Origin: Trypanosoma brucei
Lineage: Eukaryota
Reading direction: 5' to 3'
Assembly: GCA_000002445.1 (NCBI GenBank)
Contig: CH464491.1
Span: 384,001 to 448,000 of the forward strand
DNA length: 64,000 nucleotides
Part shown: positions 51,001 through 60,000 of the stretch, one piece after another
Numbering within the stretch: the stretch's first letter is position 1
How the letters are laid out: each line of letters begins with the position of its first letter
Program-made: the position numbers

Positions 51001-54000
51001 ACTACTATGCAGTAGGCGGAACAAGCGTGATAACGACCGAGCGCCGAGGGAACCAACTGATCCCGTGACACTTATCTTCACTGACATCGAGAACAGCACA
51101 GCCCAGTGGGCGGCGCATCCCGATCTCATGACGGAGGCGGTAGCCGCGCACCACCGCTTGATCCGTGCACTGGTGCTGAGGCATAACTGCTACGAAGTTA
51201 AGACCATTGGAGACTCCTTCATGATCGCGAGCAAGCACCCGTCCCAAGCGGTTCAACTGGCAGCAGATGTTCAACTCATGTTCTTGCACAACGACTGGGG
51301 TACGGATGTATTCGACAATTTCTACCGTGAGTTGGAGGAAACGAATGCGAAGGAGGATAATGAATACACTTCTCCTACTGCATGTCTGGACCCCGAAGTG
51401 TACAGTCGGTTGTGGAGTGGTTTACGCGTACGCATTGGTATTCACACCGGGTTGTGTGATATTCGGCATGATGAAGTCACAAAAGGTTACGACTACTACG
51501 GTCCCGCCACCAACATGGCAGCACGCACGGAGAGTGTTGCTAACGGTGGGCAAGTATTAATAACACATGCAACTTATATGTCTCTGAGTGAGTCGGAGCG
51601 GCAACAGTTCGGTGTGACCGCACTCGGACCCGTGGCATTGCGTGGCGTTCCTCAACCGGTGCAGCTGTACCAGCTAAGTGCGGTACCGGGTCGTACCTTC
51701 GCACCCCTCCGCCTTGACCGGGAGTATTTCTTCGAAGATGAAAATGAGACCACCAACTCCACAAGCGAAAATAGCTCGTCACGTGCGGAGCTTGGTGAAT
51801 CGGCACAAATGATTATGACTTCACTTCAGATGTTGCTCAGTACCTTCAAGGGTCCGCAGCGTGAGAAATTGCTAACGCCGTACTGTGAGCGCTGGCGTGT
51901 GCCGCTACCCCGGAAGTGTACAAGAGTGTGGGATGAGGAATATTGTCAGGAGGTTATGCGTCGCATTGCTGCAAAGGTCGGGCACGTGGCGGACCACTGT
52001 GCGGTGGGCCAAAGCAATCACTCCACAAGTACACTGAGCAGCGCATCAGTGGTGATTATCTCCGAAAACAAAGCTTTCCTCGATACATGTTCTTCCATGC
52101 TTTGACGTCACGCCTGCACGTGTTTATGCGGACATATTAGCAGTTAAATATGTACGATCTTCCTCTGTATAGTCTAGTTATTAACCATTGAGTTAGCCAA
52201 GACCTGTTAACTTTCCGGTGTGAGCGTTCTTTTTTTCTTTTCTTTTTTTGTTTTCATTTTTTACTTTGAGTACTTTACAAATCAATAAGGCTTCGAAAAT
52301 GTTGTTTTCCTTTCTTTTTCCTTACTGCGTTACGGTAGCGGCGTTTTTTTTATCTTTTTTAATAACCTCAGGGACCTCTATGTAATATGCCAATTAGTTA
52401 CATCTCTCTAGGATAGGCATAATTTCTCATGATGTATAAATATAAATATCTTTTTTTATTTTTATTTTTATGTATATGCTTATCTAATCTATGTATTTTA
52501 TTTTCTTGTTTCATTTCCTCTTATGACTATTAATGTTTTCATCTTACACTAATTTAAATTTTTTCCACCCCGTATTACCGAACACATTTGTCACATTGGG
52601 CTCCGGTTCGGGATTTTGAAGACGCCTGGCTCATGCCTTCCTCCACTGCATAACACTGCCCATAACCGTTTAGCGGCACATAATAATATAAATAGTAATA
52701 ACAATGACAATAATGATAAATGTTTTTTTCTCATGAGCGTTTGCGGTATTACCCATGTATTTTCTTTGTTTTTTTTTTCGTCATTATTGCCGTTATTTTC
52801 ATCACCAATTGTTTACTCTCAACCTCCCAATGACACTTCCCTCAGCCCAACTGAATGCGCCCATAGAGCGCTTACCGTAGTGTTTATTATTATTTTTTCT
52901 TCCGAATCAAGTTAGTATAAATTTACTCGTGTGTTTTAATTTGATTTAACCTTATGCGTAGCACAAATGCATAATATCTTAGCAGGTACTGTCTTGATTC
53001 ATTCTTATTCCATGGTACTCTCTGTGGTTCACCGTGTTGATGAAGCTTTTGTATATTTATATTCCCCATCATTTTGATAGTGCACGAAAAAGCTGTAACA
53101 TATCTTCATAGGTGAAATTTATGCATTATACTCCCAACTGCTTTTGTAGGTGAGGGATGAGGTGCGGAAGGAAAAATCTGCACTGGATCCTCTGAGGTGT
53201 GTGGTGGTTGTCGTTGATTGAATTATGATTTTCTTGTCGTGACCCCGCCGCCGGGGGAAATTTGGCAGTCTCTTTTCGACAAATGCGATATAGGCTTGTA
53301 TGTTGGGCTGGAAGATGGATCGCCTGTGGTGTGTTGGGCTTTCTTTATTTGGTGTGGAAGCTTTATGCGCATTTTTGTTGTTGTAGAGGTGGTGAAAATC
53401 ACATTTTATGCACTTGGTGGTAGAAGTATTGGGAGGGTTTTGATGTTTTTCATGCCCTTATTCACGCACTCGAATGGCGCCACCTCAGCCGGGGAACTCG
53501 GCTCTCTTCGAAGTGTCGCATTCTTTTTCCTCCGCTTGTCCATACAATACCTACTCGCAAGCTGGTGAAAATTAAGCCGCCAAGTCCCTCTCAACGGTAT
53601 GCGCATAATCCGTGCCTGGCAAAATCAACTATTCTGAAACACTGTCTGTAGACACAAAGGGCGGTTAAGGCGCTCATTTTCATGTTCCATTTACACTTCC
53701 TCCATCACACAATCAAACAAAAAACTTTCTCATTTTAGTGACAATGCCATTCGAACGGCGTCTTCGAGTATGCCAAAGCGGACCCATGTGCCCTACTCGG
53801 GCCGCAACGCCAGCAGCGCGTTATGGCCTTTACCAAGGGTTTACTGGGGAGTATAGTCGTTTCTCCATATTCCTGCATCATAGTTCCCTCTGGTTGTATT
53901 TCCCACTTTCTTTCTATAATCCTTCTGCGTTGGTTGACGAATGGATGTGTTACGTGGGCAGTTGCTCCATCACTGCGAAATGGTAGAAGGTGGGGGTGAT

Positions 54001-57000: not shown

Positions 57001-60000
57001 GCCGCTGCGGAGTACAAGTTAACGAGTTGGCAGATGAATATGCAACGCAAGTTGTAGAAACCGGCGCATATGAGAAAACTTTAGCACTATAGCATACTTA
57101 CGCGAACCAGCCTCCACGAACGATGTGGAACCAAATCATTTCATATCTATAGCACCGATGTAAACTCGGGAAAATGGGTTCAAGGACGGAACACCTTGAA
57201 CTGAAACTCCTGGCGGCACCACACCATGTTGAAGTAAATACAAAAAAATATATCTTCACTACTCCCAAGAGGGCCGCTTTCTACAATATCCAAAGGAGGA
57301 CGTCAAAAATATATAAGACAGTCCGTGCACTGACCGTCCAGGCACGCAAACCACAAGACGATGGTTGACGCGAAACCACGGTCGATCTGGATTCGCACAT
57401 TGATTATTACAAAATTTTCAAATAGATTTAGAAGTTCAGAGCTAAATAAAACAAATGAATAAACATATATACACAACATCCCCTTTTATTTGCTTCCCTC
57501 ATGTCTCAATCTGTTTCTGTTTTCTTTATGCAACTATTTTGGAGCTGCTTCCGATGTGCCACTGCAGAATGAAAAAATGCTCATTGGAACAAATGCATGA
57601 GTTTGCATATAAATATCACACATAATTTATTTCATATTACGAGTGTTTGCAATATAATGGAAAACATGGAAAGGAAATGAATCAATGAATATGCGCCGCA
57701 GTTGTAAAAGGTTTGTGCTACTATTGTGCTTGCTTGTCTCAAAAACTCCTTCCCAATTGTTTAGTATGAAGCAAATTGTTGTAGCAGTTTAAATGAGAAA
57801 AAAGATACATAGTCCACTCTGTTTGTTCCAACAGCAATTTATCCTTTTTCAAAATGCTTCACACACAATACCAGAGAAAAATTACCTTTTTTTCTTGTCA
57901 GTACTGACATTCCTTCTTCGCAACGTACTCTGTAGAATTGGAAGTTTGAAACAATTGAAGGGACCTCCGCACACTCACGGAATGGCATCTGTTTTGCCTT
58001 CATAATGATAGTTTCATTCCTCCGCGGGTTGTGGCGTGATATCCTCCGCTTCTCCTCTTTTTTCCAGTTTTCGCGGTATTGGAGTCCATTCCCCCTCCCT
58101 TCATTCTTCCAAATAAATTATAAAGGTATCAAATGAAAGGGCTTTGAGGGCACTCGGCATTGACGAAAACACTACGAAGTTATTGTTCCCAATGGAATTT
58201 ATTCGTGAAGTGTAAGATACAAAGGAGGCCAAGTAGAGAAAATAATACAACCCAAAATGTCAGGGAACACGGGTATTTATTAGGAATGAACGTAGAACTA
58301 ACATGCGCAGATATGATACTGCAAAGACAACAATTTCGGCTAACATTTGTGTGCATGTTCAACTTTTACAACTGGAGAAATATTCACTACTAAAGTTTTC
58401 TCACAGTTGTAATAATAGCAATGCGTGAAAACACAAATACACGCTCCTCAAATGCATGATACAACCAGAGGTGTAAATAGCTCAAATGGTAGGATTCTCG
58501 ACACATGTGGAAACGAATTAACTCAACTAGCAATATTTTAGTTATATCGAAGCCTTACCACAATCGGTTCAGCTAAAATACTTCAAACGAGTCCTTCAAA
58601 ACCCCTGTTTGTTAATGCTTTTATTTATTTTATTCTGATGCCTGGTGAGCATATTTGGCTGCGATGGATTACTGCTGTACATGTTGGATGTGCGAAATCT
58701 TTCTCTAAATTCACAGAAATATATATCGTACCGTCTTTCATTTTACTACTCCCTTACATTCTCTCCAAACATACATAGATGATACCATAGTCATTATAGC
58801 TATTGAGGAAACTGATACCTTGGTCTTACATTGCCCTGGTCGTGGCCGAAACTTGCAACTTGATTTGTCGTGCATTCCGCTATCCATGCTGGAAGTTGTG
58901 TTGTGCAATATTTTCCCTCCGAGTTATGAGGTGTGATAACTGTCAGTCCTTCAGTTGTGCCCTACCAATCGAATCCATCAGCACTATTTTATTGCATCTC
59001 CTCATTCACTTCCCCTTTTACACAGACATATTTCTACCATTAAAAGTTAAAATGTGACTCATAAGCGATGATGAGACCACACCGAGTTGTTTTGCTATTA
59101 CCTCAGTAGCACCACATGAAAGCAAAGTGTTGGCTTTGCATTGCCCTTCTGTGCCAATAGTCGAAAACAGAAATATAGTGAGGAATGTTTGTTATTATTT
59201 GGAATCCTTTTATTGAGTGTGACTTTGGAATCGTAACATAATTGAAATAAGCAGAGAATGTGTCATCCCTCCCTTCCCATTAATTTTCTACATGTGCTGA
59301 GAGGAGATGAAAAGTGTTTTCAGTGTTTGAAGTTTTGACATTTCAGTGGCATAATACTTCAAGTTAGTGGAAATAAAATTGCATACCCAATGCCATTATG
59401 ATGCAAATACATTCAACTGACAGCATTCAATCATCTCATTGCCAAACTTTGTTTCGACTCTCAGAAATAATATTTTTAGTAGAAAACGGCTACCAAACAT
59501 AAGTAATGGGAACTACAATGTCAGGAAACCAAGGAAGAAAGCGACAGCGCATCTCAACTCCTGAGCACTCAGAAGCTTTAAAGGAACCATCAACTTCTCA
59601 AAAAAATACACCAACCACCATTACAATCACCGAAGAAATGCGTGACTCCAGTAATGAAGGAACTTTGGTATCATTACTGAATGAGCGTGAGAAGTTGATT
59701 AAAGAAACACCACGGCTGGAAAGCAATGTGAAGGCATTCAGATATTTTATGAGTGGTCTCACAGCTATGAGTGTTGAAAGGCAAGGTGGTGTGTGTGATG
59801 ACGCCAAATGCATACGTACAGTAACGTTATATCATGCTGCTGATAATTCCTTTAGTGGCAAAGGACTAAATGAAGGTGCTCTTTCCTCACTCTGTGGTCG
59901 CATTCAAGCTGAGAAATTAACCATCACAATGTCAGAAGGTGAGAAATTTGACTTACAAGGAGTCAGTGAGCTAAAGCAGTTGGAAGAGTTACGCATTGAA

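What the first reader, a model, noticed from the sequence alone, without database searches (positions are those of the whole stretch)
52106..59505. 7.4 kb ORF desert inside an otherwise gene-dense polycistron
Everywhere else in the window a CDS occurs every 0.5-2.6 kb. Here 7.4 kb contains no ORF longer than about 140 aa on either strand. Base composition is AT-rich but not uniformly pyrimidine-rich, so it is not just a long UTR. It has short overlapping ORFs in multiple frames and a (AT)10 and G10 tract. In trypanosomes such gaps typically hold decayed pseudogenes or retroelement relics (ingi/RIME/DIRE), non-coding RNA genes, or internal termination/re-initiation boundaries marked by base J and H3.V/H2A.Z. 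I could not recognise tRNA T-loop consensus or spliced-leader sequence by eye.
Basis: seen in the sequence. Interest (0 to 1): 0.55.

Follow-up and report, generated by a model that had tools for sequence, protein, structure and literature searches.

The report
Gene-free gap built from duplication debris
The 7.4 kb gene-free stretch on Trypanosoma brucei chromosome 11 is real, but it is a patchwork of non-coding DNA left by recent duplications, including a broken-off copy of the front end of a deubiquitinase gene with 1.6 kb of that gene's start-region DNA; it holds no hidden RNA gene or retroelement.

Summary
In detail: 52106-59505 has no ORF above 142 aa, the G10 and (TA)10 tracts exist, and the gap is three times the next longest in the window. 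The window is T. brucei TREU927 chromosome 11, between GRESAG4 cyclase Tb927.11.1480 and an LRR protein. The gap is a mosaic. (1) 52106-53227 is the 3' flank of the cyclase and belongs to a 4.95 kb tandem-duplication unit. (2) 53473-55432 is a 98.4%-identical copy of the 1.6 kb upstream of, plus the first 361 nt of, the USP deubiquitinase gene Tb927.11.1930, which lies about 106-118 kb (depending on the assembly) downstream as the first gene of a divergent start region. This copy yields the 139-aa ORF that TriTrypDB calls Tb927.11.1495: a truncated fragment with no catalytic domain and a stop codon in T. b. equiperdum. (3) 55433-59505 is unique non-coding DNA. No tRNA, Rfam family, reverse transcriptase, repeat or conserved ORF was found. 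In T. melophagium the upstream gene Fab1 directly abuts the strand switch, so the whole ISG65-to-LRRP block is a brucei-lineage addition at the end of a transcription unit. A published Bdf3 peak maps inside the copied start-region DNA, but copy and parent are identical there, so it cannot be assigned. Ordinary overall, with one testable twist.

The parts
52106..53227 (+). 3' flank of the GRESAG4 cyclase (Tb927.11.1480). It is the last 1.1 kb of a 4.95 kb unit (window 48265-53227) that is tandemly duplicated in T. b. gambiense. AT-rich, with a polypyrimidine cluster (52227-52267, 52305-52323, 52496-52522, 52760-52779).
   Evidence: megablast of L003 against the window and against itself; polyY map; composition
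53079..53080 (+). AG splice acceptor after a pyrimidine-rich stretch. It corresponds to the 5' end of the published nanopore lncRNA nt_5697.1/.2 (v5.1 444818, 974 nt after the cyclase stop), which was mapped on the twin copy of this flank.
   Evidence: Table S5 of PMC10048164; sequence; duplication geometry. Its use at this copy is inferred.
53228..53472 (.). 245-nt junction segment between the cyclase unit and the USP-derived block. Unique, and part of the most G+T-rich stretch of the gap (53.0-53.4 kb, z about 2.8).
53473..55432 (+). Segmental duplicate (1,960 nt, 98.4% identity) of the parent USP locus Tb927.11.1930: 1,605 nt of its upstream divergent strand-switch region plus the first 361 nt of its coding sequence. 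Both breakpoints are sharp.
   Evidence: blastn of the window against L006 and L007; junction alignment and five-way divergence
54553..54953 (.). Position of a published 'high-confidence' Bdf3 CUT&RUN site (Tb927_11_v5.1:448837-449237), about 5-fold weaker than the summits that flank the parent start region. The assignment is ambiguous because copy and parent are identical for 445-472 nt here.
   Evidence: supplements of PMC9241505; coordinate offset from ORF-A and the LRRP start; identity run
54991..55016 (+). Copied polypyrimidine/AG trans-splice acceptor region and 5'UTR of the USP gene, nearly base-for-base identical to the parent.
55072..55491 (+). [quoted passage not shown] A chimeric truncated ORF: about 120 codons of the USP N-terminal helical domain, then 19 codons of read-through. 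No catalytic domain. Q88 is a stop codon in T. b. equiperdum.
55433..57400 (.). Unique A+C- and purine-rich non-coding stretch (GC 0.43-0.49) with almost no polypyrimidine tracts. It contains ORF-B (55527-55898, frameshifted between subspecies), G10 (55951-55960) and (TA)10 (56160-56179). Origin unknown. Predicted to be the 3' tail of the ORF-A transcript.
57401..59505 (+). AT-rich 5' flank of the LRR-protein gene, with polypyrimidine tracts at 57479-57500, 58042-58065, 58089-58110 and 58997-59019 (candidate acceptors at 58066, 58124 and 59024). Very low divergence between subspecies (0.05-0.29%).

Best explanation
The gap is a mosaic of non-coding DNA left by recent segmental duplications, inside a brucei-lineage-specific block added at the far end of a polycistronic transcription unit. 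Its first 1.1 kb is the 3' flank of the tandemly duplicated GRESAG4 cyclase. Its middle 2 kb is a young partial copy of the USP deubiquitinase gene Tb927.11.1930: 1.6 kb of that gene's upstream start region plus the first 361 nt of its coding sequence, cut off before the catalytic domain. The last 4 kb is unique non-coding DNA leading to the LRR-protein gene. Shown: the anatomy, the homologies, the lack of coding constraint and the absence of known RNA genes or retroelements. Inferred: RNA polymerase II reads through the interval, and the retained splice-acceptor and polypyrimidine signals cut the transcript into (a) the cyclase mRNA with a short 3'UTR, (b) a non-coding RNA of about 2 kb starting at or before 53081, (c) a non-functional RNA of about 2-3 kb carrying the truncated USP ORF, and (d) the LRR-protein mRNA. 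None of the three gap-derived products is expected to have a sequence-specific function.
For: Locus identity: exact protein matches to TREU927 chromosome 11 with consecutive accessions EAN79127 and EAN79128. TriTrypDB IDs and coordinates come from the supplement of PMC9241505. Cyclase flank: gambiense carries a 4.95 kb tandem unit equal to window 48265-53227. USP fragment: an exhaustive phmmer search finds three trypanosomatid USPs whose residues 1-117 align to ORF-A (E 2e-8 to 1e-4), and all three have C-terminal Pfam UCH domains. ORF-A is 116/122 identical to T. brucei's own USP P0045 but only 47% identical to the T. congolense ortholog. DNA identity of 98.4% over 53473-55432 covers 1,605 nt upstream of the parent's ATG. 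No catalytic-domain relic is found by tblastn or Pfam in any frame. No coding constraint: ORF-A has a stop codon in equiperdum, ORF-B and the 142-aa ORF are frameshifted between subspecies, and the codon-model score of the gap is non-coding (median -0.115 against +0.23 for genes). No RNA genes or repeats, with a positive control for Rfam. Lineage-specific addition: in T. melophagium the TB11Cs4 snoRNA cluster starts 364 nt after the Fab1 stop, whereas in T. brucei about 25 kb intervenes. Processing signals: polyY map, the nanopore lncRNA start matching the AG at 53079-80, and the copied USP acceptor.
Against: I could examine no RNA-seq, spliced-leader or poly(A) data for this exact copy, so the transcript model is inferred from signals and from the twin copy. 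The origin of 55433-59505 (55% of the gap) is unexplained. Its coding-like GC content and its very low divergence between subspecies (0.05-0.47%, below the 0.42-0.73% of the cyclase coding sequence) could indicate function. A published Bdf3 site maps inside the copied start-region DNA, so this part may not be inert. Searches for relics in 55433-57400 were limited to Pfam, proteins encoded in the window, and loci fetched here. The T. brucei genome itself could not be searched.
Confidence: 0.75

Rival explanations
1. Copied promoter. The 1.6 kb of divergent start-region DNA that was duplicated together with the USP 5' end still recruits start-site chromatin (Bdf3, acetylated H4, H2A.Z). It acts as a new internal Pol II start site that drives the truncated USP RNA and the terminal LRR-protein gene.
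For: [quoted passage not shown] The copy covers 1,605 nt of that region. One of the 268 'high-confidence' Bdf3 sites maps to 54553-54953 and is not within 5 kb of any divergent strand switch. A second site lies just past the LRR gene. Partial start-region fragments and GT-rich elements can drive directional transcription and H2A.Z deposition at ectopic sites (PMC5579346). Base composition switches at about 55.0 kb.
Against: Within one genome, copy and parent are identical for 445-472 nt across most of the peak window, so reads cannot be assigned with confidence. The signal is about 5-fold weaker than at the parent's flanking summits and follows the same time course. It is unknown whether the parent's real initiation sites lie within the copied 1.6 kb of an 8 kb start region. 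G+T richness of the copied part is only moderate (z 1-1.8) and similar to ordinary intergenic DNA.
Confidence: 0.2
2. The whole interval is simply one very long untranslated region, either the 3'UTR of the cyclase mRNA or the 5'UTR of the LRR-protein mRNA, with no independent transcripts.
For: No conserved ORF and no RNA gene were found. Between 52.8 and 57.5 kb there is almost no strong plus-strand polypyrimidine tract.
Against: A strong polyY cluster begins 122 nt after the cyclase stop. Nanopore reads define a separate polyadenylated RNA that starts at the acceptor equivalent to 53079-80 on the twin copy. The copied USP acceptor and 5'UTR are intact at 54991-55071. PolyY tracts lie 0.5-1.4 kb upstream of the LRR ATG.
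Confidence: 0.1
3. The gap hides one or two genuine small protein genes: ORF-A (139 aa, Tb927.11.1495) as a stand-alone USP8-like N-terminal domain protein, and ORF-B (123 aa).
For: Both are called as coding sequences in gambiense DAL972, and ORF-A is a named gene in TriTrypDB. ORF-A is intact in TREU927 and gambiense and keeps a functional-looking acceptor and 5'UTR. Codon scores are borderline (0.08 and 0.16 against a coding 10th percentile of 0.126).
Against: ORF-A has a premature stop (Q88) in equiperdum. Its two fixed differences from the parent inside the coding part (55366, 55399) both change an amino acid. ORF-B is frameshifted over 18 codons in gambiense and broken in equiperdum. GenBank calls the gambiense ORF-A 'hypothetical protein, unlikely'. 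ORF lengths are within chance.
Confidence: 0.05
4. The gap is a relic of a retroelement (ingi, RIME, DIRE or SIDER) or of an RHS, VSG or ESAG pseudogene.
For: Such relics are common in T. brucei-specific regions next to LRRP and GRESAG4 genes (general knowledge). 55433-57400 has a coding-like GC content and no known origin.
Against: No Pfam hit at E<=1 in six stop-masked frames. No A or T run of 12 or more. No internal or window-wide repeat. No similarity to any protein encoded in the window.
Confidence: 0.04

Closest known systems
Tb927.11.1930 (EAN79165 / XP_828277), the trypanosomatid USP/C19 deubiquitinase with an N-terminal helical domain
   Same: Window 53473-55432 is 98.4% identical in DNA to this gene's upstream 1.6 kb plus its first 361 nt. 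ORF-A shares 116 of 122 residues with its N-terminus. The splice-acceptor region and 5'UTR are the same.
   Different: The copy stops at codon 121 or so. The linker and the whole UCH catalytic domain are absent. It lies about 106-118 kb (depending on the assembly) upstream of the parent, inside a transcription unit and not at a strand-switch region. It carries a stop codon in T. b. equiperdum.
Non-processed (duplicative) pseudogene fragments made by segmental duplication
   Same: A DNA-level copy that includes non-transcribed or upstream sequence, with sharp breakpoints, no poly(A) tail, loss of coding constraint and high identity to a nearby parent on the same chromosome.
   Different: The copy seems to be kept similar to the parent. 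Copy-to-parent divergence (0.8-1.4%) is no greater than copy-to-copy divergence between subspecies, and only 4 differences are fixed. It also carries start-region DNA of a polycistronic unit, which ordinary gene fragments do not.
T. brucei intergenic lncRNAs (Guegan et al. 2022, PMC9200285; Kruse and Goringer 2023, PMC10048164: nt_5697.1/.2)
   Same: Trans-spliced, polyadenylated, non-coding, and located between protein-coding genes. The nt_5697 acceptor sequence is present in the gap at 53079-80.
   Different: nt_5697 was mapped on the twin cyclase copy, and its body lies in a 1.8 kb spacer that this window lacks. No transcript has been shown for the gap copy, and no function is known.
Internal (non-strand-switch) Pol II transcription start regions of T. 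brucei, marked by Bdf3, H2A.Z and H4K10ac
   Same: A published Bdf3 site inside a head-to-tail gene array; DNA derived from a genuine start region; moderately G+T-rich sense strand upstream.
   Different: The signal is weak and not uniquely mappable. No initiation data exist. I am not aware of any start region reported to have arisen by duplication.

Membership tests
USP / peptidase C19 deubiquitinase (the TriTrypDB label of Tb927.11.1495) | UCH catalytic domain with Cys and His boxes (Pfam PF00443 / PF13423) | tested here: not met
   Pfam on ORF-A at E<=10 shows no UCH domain. Six stop-masked frames of the whole gap show none. tblastn with three full-length USPs finds only residues 1-117/121. 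The full-length homologs have UCH at E 1e-52 to 1e-57.
USP / peptidase C19 deubiquitinase (the TriTrypDB label of Tb927.11.1495) | Homology to the family's N-terminal helical domain in trypanosomatids | tested here: met
   phmmer E 2e-8, 2e-7 and 1e-4 over residues 1-117; 95% identity to the P0045 N-terminus
Duplicative (non-processed) pseudogene fragment | DNA-level identity to a parent gene that extends beyond the mRNA into upstream DNA, with truncation of the coding sequence | tested here: met
   53473-55432 equals L006 8396-10361 (98.4%), including 1,605 nt upstream of the ATG. Both breakpoints are sharp, and the right one falls at codon 121 or so.
Duplicative (non-processed) pseudogene fragment | Loss of purifying selection or a disabling mutation | tested here: met
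   Q88 is a stop codon in T. b. equiperdum. The two fixed differences from the parent inside the coding part are non-synonymous. Power is limited by low divergence.
Non-LTR retroelements ingi, RIME and DIRE | Reverse transcriptase or endonuclease coding relic | tested here: not met
   No Pfam hit at E<=1 in six frames
Non-LTR retroelements ingi, RIME and DIRE | 3' poly(A) tract, or dispersed-repeat similarity to the element consensus | tested here: inconclusive
   No A or T run of 12 or more and no repeat within the window. The ingi, RIME and DIRE consensus sequences and the full genome were not available for comparison.
Known small RNA genes (tRNA, snoRNA, snRNA, SL RNA) | Match to an Rfam covariance model or a tRNA model | tested here: not met
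   Rfam at E<=1 gave 0 hits on 51800-59800. ARAGORN found 0 tRNAs. Positive control: the TB11Cs4 snoRNAs were found in L001 and L008.
Pol II transcription start region (TSR) | Enrichment of Bdf3, H2A.Z or H4K10ac | tested here: inconclusive
   A published Bdf3 site is at v5.1 448837-449237, equal to window 54553-54953. The sequence is identical to the parent over 445-472 nt there.
Pol II transcription start region (TSR) | Mapped primary (5'-triphosphate) transcript starts | not testable with these tools
   No TSS dataset was accessible for this locus.
Transcription termination region | Base J, H3.V or H4.V enrichment and a drop in Pol II | not testable with these tools
   No such data were accessible. 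Only the position near a convergent strand switch is shown.
Trypanosome lncRNA | An independent spliced-leader-capped, polyadenylated transcript without coding potential | tested here: inconclusive
   nt_5697.1/.2 start at the acceptor equivalent to 53079-80, but on the twin copy. The lack of coding potential is shown. No transcript data exist for this copy.

The most novel reading that the evidence does not exclude
A natural promoter transplant. A 1.6 kb piece of a divergent Pol II start region, duplicated about 106-118 kb (depending on the assembly) away into the tail of another polycistron, still nucleates start-site chromatin (the Bdf3 site at 54553-54953). This would create a new internal start site that drives the brucei-specific LRR-protein gene. 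It would be a natural counterpart of the ectopic start-region fragment experiments, and an example of how new transcription units arise in trypanosomes.
Probability: 0.2. Interest if true: 0.6.

Novelty: new member of a known kind. Interest (0 to 1): 0.3.

Why it matters
Mostly as housekeeping. It explains an odd 7.4 kb hole. It shows that Tb927.11.1495, labelled 'ubiquitin hydrolase', is a catalytically empty truncated duplicate and should be marked as a pseudogene fragment. It warns that short-read chromatin or RNA signals at 53.5-55.4 kb can be confused with the parent locus Tb927.11.1930. It also documents that the ends of polycistronic units accumulate lineage-specific genes and duplication debris: here about 25 kb was added between Fab1 and a conserved snoRNA cluster. 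The one point of wider interest is that the duplicate carries genuine start-region DNA. If that DNA is active, the locus is a ready-made natural experiment on whether DNA sequence alone defines Pol II start regions in trypanosomes.

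Tried and rejected
Rfam (E<=1) and ARAGORN on the gap found nothing. TRF and repeat searches found only low-complexity tracts. Pfam on all six stop-masked frames found nothing; the tool refuses translations with stops, so X-masked sequences were pasted in. tblastn of the 14 window proteins against the gap, to test for a decayed cyclase or LRRP paralog, found nothing. The word-indexed protein search with ORF-A returned nothing. 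This was a false negative, because the exhaustive search and a later search found a 95%-identical T. brucei protein, so negatives from that tool are weak. PDB sequence search with ORF-A found nothing. Exact-protein look-ups of TREU927 proteins failed, so gambiense and equiperdum proteins were used instead. G+T richness as a promoter signature did not discriminate from ordinary intergenic DNA. Supplements of the SPARC paper gave only false prefix matches. The Guegan lncRNA tables are not held. No paper mentions Tb11.53.0001, Tb927.11.1495 or Tb927.11.1500 in its main text. 55433-59505 was compared with all fetched loci and matched only its own orthologs. The coding-potential model found no hidden frame.

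Full report
OBSERVATION. The ORF-free interval is real. No ORF of 150 aa or more lies between 52106 and 59505 on either strand. The longest are 142 aa (54006-54434, TTG start) and 141 aa (55066-55491; 139 aa from the ATG at 55072). The twelve other inter-ORF distances in the window are 0.6-2.5 kb. G10 (55951-55960) and (TA)10 (56160-56179) are present. GC content ranges from 0.27 to 0.51, in three zones: AT- and pyrimidine-rich at 52.1-53.0 kb, coding-like GC (0.43-0.51) at 53.0-57.3 kb, and AT-rich at 57.3-59.5 kb. The short ORFs are about what chance gives: in 500 local dinucleotide shuffles the longest stop-free run has P=0.28, and runs of 100 codons or more number 10 against 4.6 expected, P=0.03.

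IDENTITY OF THE LOCUS. Exact-sequence look-ups place the window on Trypanosoma brucei brucei TREU927 chromosome 11. The genes are CITFA-3, a selenoprotein F/M-like protein, TbFab1, an ISG65-like protein, a GRESAG4 adenylate cyclase (EAN79127) and the LRR protein Tb11.53.0001 (EAN79128). The last two have consecutive accessions, so GenBank annotates nothing in the gap. TbFab1 is Tb927.11.1460 (PMC9896412). A supplement of PMC9241505 gives the TriTrypDB v5.1 annotation:
- Tb927.11.1480, GRESAG4, 440128-443844
- Tb927.11.1490, 'GRESAG4 (fragment)', 446937-447935
- Tb927.11.1500, 'LRRP (fragment)', 453791-458779
Tb927.11.1495 is 420 nt and lies 4,435 nt before the LRRP start, exactly like the 139-aa ORF at 55072-55491 (ORF-A). 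The orthologous intervals of T. b. gambiense DAL972 (L001, L003) and T. b. equiperdum (L002) are colinear and more than 99% identical, so the gap is not an assembly artefact.

WHAT IS NOT THERE. Rfam at E<=1 gave no hit in 51800-59800, and ARAGORN found no tRNA in the window. The same Rfam search found the TB11Cs4 H/ACA snoRNA cluster in the flanking gambiense sequence, so the negative result is meaningful for known families. Tandem repeats are only low-complexity tracts. The gap shares nothing with the rest of the window and has no internal repeats. None of the 14 window proteins, including the cyclase and the LRRP, has a relic in it. Pfam finds no domain at E<=1 in any of six stop-masked frames, so there is no reverse transcriptase, endonuclease, RHS, VSG or ESAG relic. 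There is no A or T run of 12 or more. A codon-usage model trained on the window's genes scores the gap as non-coding: the median best-frame score is -0.115 per codon, against +0.23 for genes and -0.22 for other intergenic DNA. Only 55.1-55.7 kb approaches the lower edge of the coding range.

NO CONSERVED SMALL GENES. In the three-subspecies alignment ORF-A carries a premature stop (Q88 to TAG) in T. b. equiperdum. ORF-B (55527-55898, called as a coding sequence in gambiense) is frameshifted over about 18 codons in gambiense and broken in equiperdum. The 142-aa ORF is frameshifted in both.

PART 1: CYCLASE FLANK. Gambiense has two full cyclase genes. The tandem unit corresponds to window 48265-53227 (4.95 kb, 99.2% identity between copies), and the two copies are separated by 1,842 nt that the window lacks. 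So 52106-53227 is the cyclase's own duplicated 3' flank. The v5.1 'GRESAG4 fragment' starts 3,092 nt after the first cyclase stop, against 3,073 nt in gambiense. It is therefore the 5' end of a second copy, and v5.1 then rejoins the window sequence at about 53652. Nanopore direct-RNA sequencing (PMC10048164, Table S5) reports 'novel intergenic lncRNAs' nt_5697.1 and nt_5697.2 starting at v5.1 444818, which is 974 nt after the cyclase stop. The equivalent window position, 53079, is an AG preceded by a pyrimidine-rich stretch. The body of that RNA runs into the inter-copy spacer, so only the acceptor is shared with the gap. Its use in this copy is inferred.

PART 2: A TRUNCATED COPY OF A USP GENE WITH ITS START-REGION DNA. 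The word-indexed protein search found nothing for ORF-A. An exhaustive phmmer search of 1.84 billion representatives found three proteins of 558-600 aa whose residues 1-117 align with ORF-A residues 1-117 (E 2e-8, 2e-7, 1e-4). They come from T. melophagium ('Peptidase C19'), an unnamed assembly and Phytomonas EM1, and each has a C-terminal Pfam UCH domain (E 1e-52 to 1e-57). T. brucei has its own intact 554-aa ortholog, P0045 (EAN79165, Tb927.11.1930). ORF-A is 116/122 identical to it and then diverges abruptly, whereas it is 47% identical to the T. congolense ortholog. At the DNA level, window 53473-55432 is 98.4% identical to the parent locus in gambiense and equiperdum. The match covers 1,605 nt upstream of the parent's ATG plus the first 361 nt of coding sequence, with sharp breakpoints. 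tblastn with the full-length USPs finds no trace of the linker or catalytic domain anywhere in the gap. The copy is therefore a truncated DNA-level segmental duplicate, not a retrocopy and not a slowly decayed full gene. ORF-A is a chimera of about 120 USP codons and 19 read-through codons. The parent's polypyrimidine/AG acceptor and 5'UTR are retained almost base-for-base. Copy-to-parent divergence (0.76-1.38%) is no greater than copy-to-copy divergence between subspecies (0.66-1.33%), and only four differences are fixed. The duplicate is therefore either very young or homogenised by gene conversion. This also explains the higher between-subspecies divergence of 53-55.9 kb relative to the rest of the gap.

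PART 3: THE REMAINING 4 KB. 55433-59505 matches only its own orthologs. 55.4-57.4 kb is A+C- and purine-rich with coding-like GC and almost no polypyrimidine tracts. 57.4-59.5 kb is AT-rich, with polyY tracts at 57479, 58042, 58089 and 58997 that could serve the LRRP mRNA. Its origin remains unknown, because I could not search the T. brucei genome itself.

CONTEXT. [quoted passage not shown] TCP-1 and a cation transporter lie on the other strand, and an RNase III-like gene, an LRR gene, a zinc-finger gene and ArgRS lie downstream. It is not next to Fab1. In T. melophagium Fab1 is the last plus-strand gene, and the minus-strand TB11Cs4 snoRNA cluster begins 364 nt after its stop, followed by acyl-CoA dehydrogenase. 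T. brucei has the same snoRNA cluster and dehydrogenase, but only after the ISG65-like gene, one or two cyclases, the gap, the LRRP and about 7.5 kb more up to the snoRNA cluster (the first called minus-strand ORF lies about 5 kb after the LRRP stop). The whole block is therefore a brucei-lineage addition of family genes and duplication debris at the end of a polycistronic unit. The gap lies one gene from the end, not in the middle.

CHROMATIN. Among 268 'high-confidence' dynamically occupied Bdf3 CUT&RUN sites, of which 162 lie within 5 kb of a divergent strand switch, one is at v5.1 448837-449237. With the offset fixed by ORF-A and the LRRP start, this equals window 54553-54953, inside the copied start-region DNA and 119-519 nt upstream of ORF-A. 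A second site lies just past the LRRP (v5.1 458280-458680). Counts at the gap site are about 5-fold lower than at the summits flanking the parent start region (559627 and 569105) and follow the same time course. Within one genome, copy and parent are identical over 445-472 nt ending at window 54858-54873, and there are no differences in 54473-54672. The peak therefore cannot be assigned with confidence. Wedel et al. 2017 showed that partial start-region fragments and GT-rich elements can drive directional transcription and H2A.Z deposition at an ectopic site, in a context-dependent manner (PMC5579346). A copied promoter is thus mechanistically plausible but untested here. G+T richness does not discriminate: the richest stretch (53.0-53.4 kb, z 2.8) lies just outside the USP copy and is matched by ordinary intergenic regions.

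MECHANISM, WITH STATUS. Shown: the mosaic anatomy, the homologies, the truncation, the lack of coding constraint, and the absence of known RNA genes and retroelement domains. Inferred: Pol II reads through and the precursor is cut at the retained signals into the cyclase mRNA, a non-coding RNA from about 53081, a non-functional RNA carrying ORF-A from about 55003-55017 to about 57.3-57.9 kb, and the LRRP mRNA. I give this 0.75. The main rival, a copied start region acting as an internal initiation site, gets about 0.2. A single long UTR, real small proteins and a retroelement relic together get 0.1 or less each.

VERDICT. The thing itself is ordinary duplication debris, part of which TriTrypDB already carries as a mislabelled 'ubiquitin hydrolase'. 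What is new is the recognition that this is a truncated copy that brought 1.6 kb of a Pol II start region with it. Interest is 0.3. If the copied DNA proves active as a start site, interest would be about 0.6.

Noticed in passing
window 48265-53227; L003 9877-14821 and 16664-21619: Cyclase copy number differs between assemblies. This window has one GRESAG4 copy, TriTrypDB v5.1 has one plus a 999-nt 5' fragment of a second (Tb927.11.1490), and gambiense has two full copies separated by a 1,842-nt spacer absent from the window. The TREU927 assemblies are probably collapsed here.
   Followed up: partly
L003 14822-16663 (gambiense inter-cyclase spacer): This 1.8 kb spacer (GC 0.46, no long ORF) matches nothing else that I hold. 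It is the body of the published lncRNA nt_5697.2, which is reported to have a sequence relative (nt_6411.1) at chr11 29046-30954 on the minus strand. This suggests the cyclase unit was exchanged with the left chromosome end.
   Followed up: no
window 59506-63705 against 57401-59505: Divergence between TREU927 and gambiense jumps from 0.05% in the 2.1 kb upstream of the LRRP ATG to 2.95% inside the LRRP coding sequence (0.62% against equiperdum). This points to gene conversion from paralogs confined to the coding sequence, or to an assembly problem; the gambiense protein is flagged 'LOW QUALITY'. v5.1 also annotates a longer LRRP 'fragment' (4,989 nt against 4,200 nt).
   Followed up: no
window 55899-59505: The 3.6 kb upstream of the LRRP is less diverged between subspecies (0.11% against gambiense, 0.31% against equiperdum) than the cyclase coding sequence (0.42% and 0.73%). 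This could reflect constraint on a UTR or non-coding RNA, or just local genealogy.
   Followed up: no
about window 63996-64396 (v5.1 458280-458680); L001 about 14490-14890: A second published Bdf3 site lies just past the LRRP stop codon, so the LRRP gene is bracketed by two weak Bdf3 sites close to a convergent strand switch. The DNA there matches nothing else that I hold.
   Followed up: partly
L001 21659-24025 (-); L008 14717-19281 (-): The tandemly repeated H/ACA snoRNA cluster TB11Cs4 (H1, H2, H3) is conserved in position between T. brucei and T. melophagium. It marks the ancestral end of the opposing transcription unit. In T. melophagium three repeated 77-aa 'genes' are called over it and are probably spurious.
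   Followed up: partly
The word-indexed protein search returned nothing for ORF-A, although the database holds a T. brucei protein that is 95% identical over 122 residues (P0045) and the gambiense ORF-A itself (P0106). Negative results from that tool should not be trusted for short queries.
   Followed up: yes
whole window: Strong polypyrimidine tracts in intergenic DNA are almost as frequent on the minus strand (51) as on the plus strand (56), although every gene in the window is on the plus strand. In other words, purine-rich tracts are common in the sense-strand intergenic regions.
   Followed up: no
L006 2044-10001: The divergent strand-switch region upstream of the parent USP gene is about 8 kb in T. 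brucei but only about 1.5-1.9 kb in T. melophagium and Phytomonas (L004, L005). Gambiense calls several small, dubious ORFs inside it.
   Followed up: no
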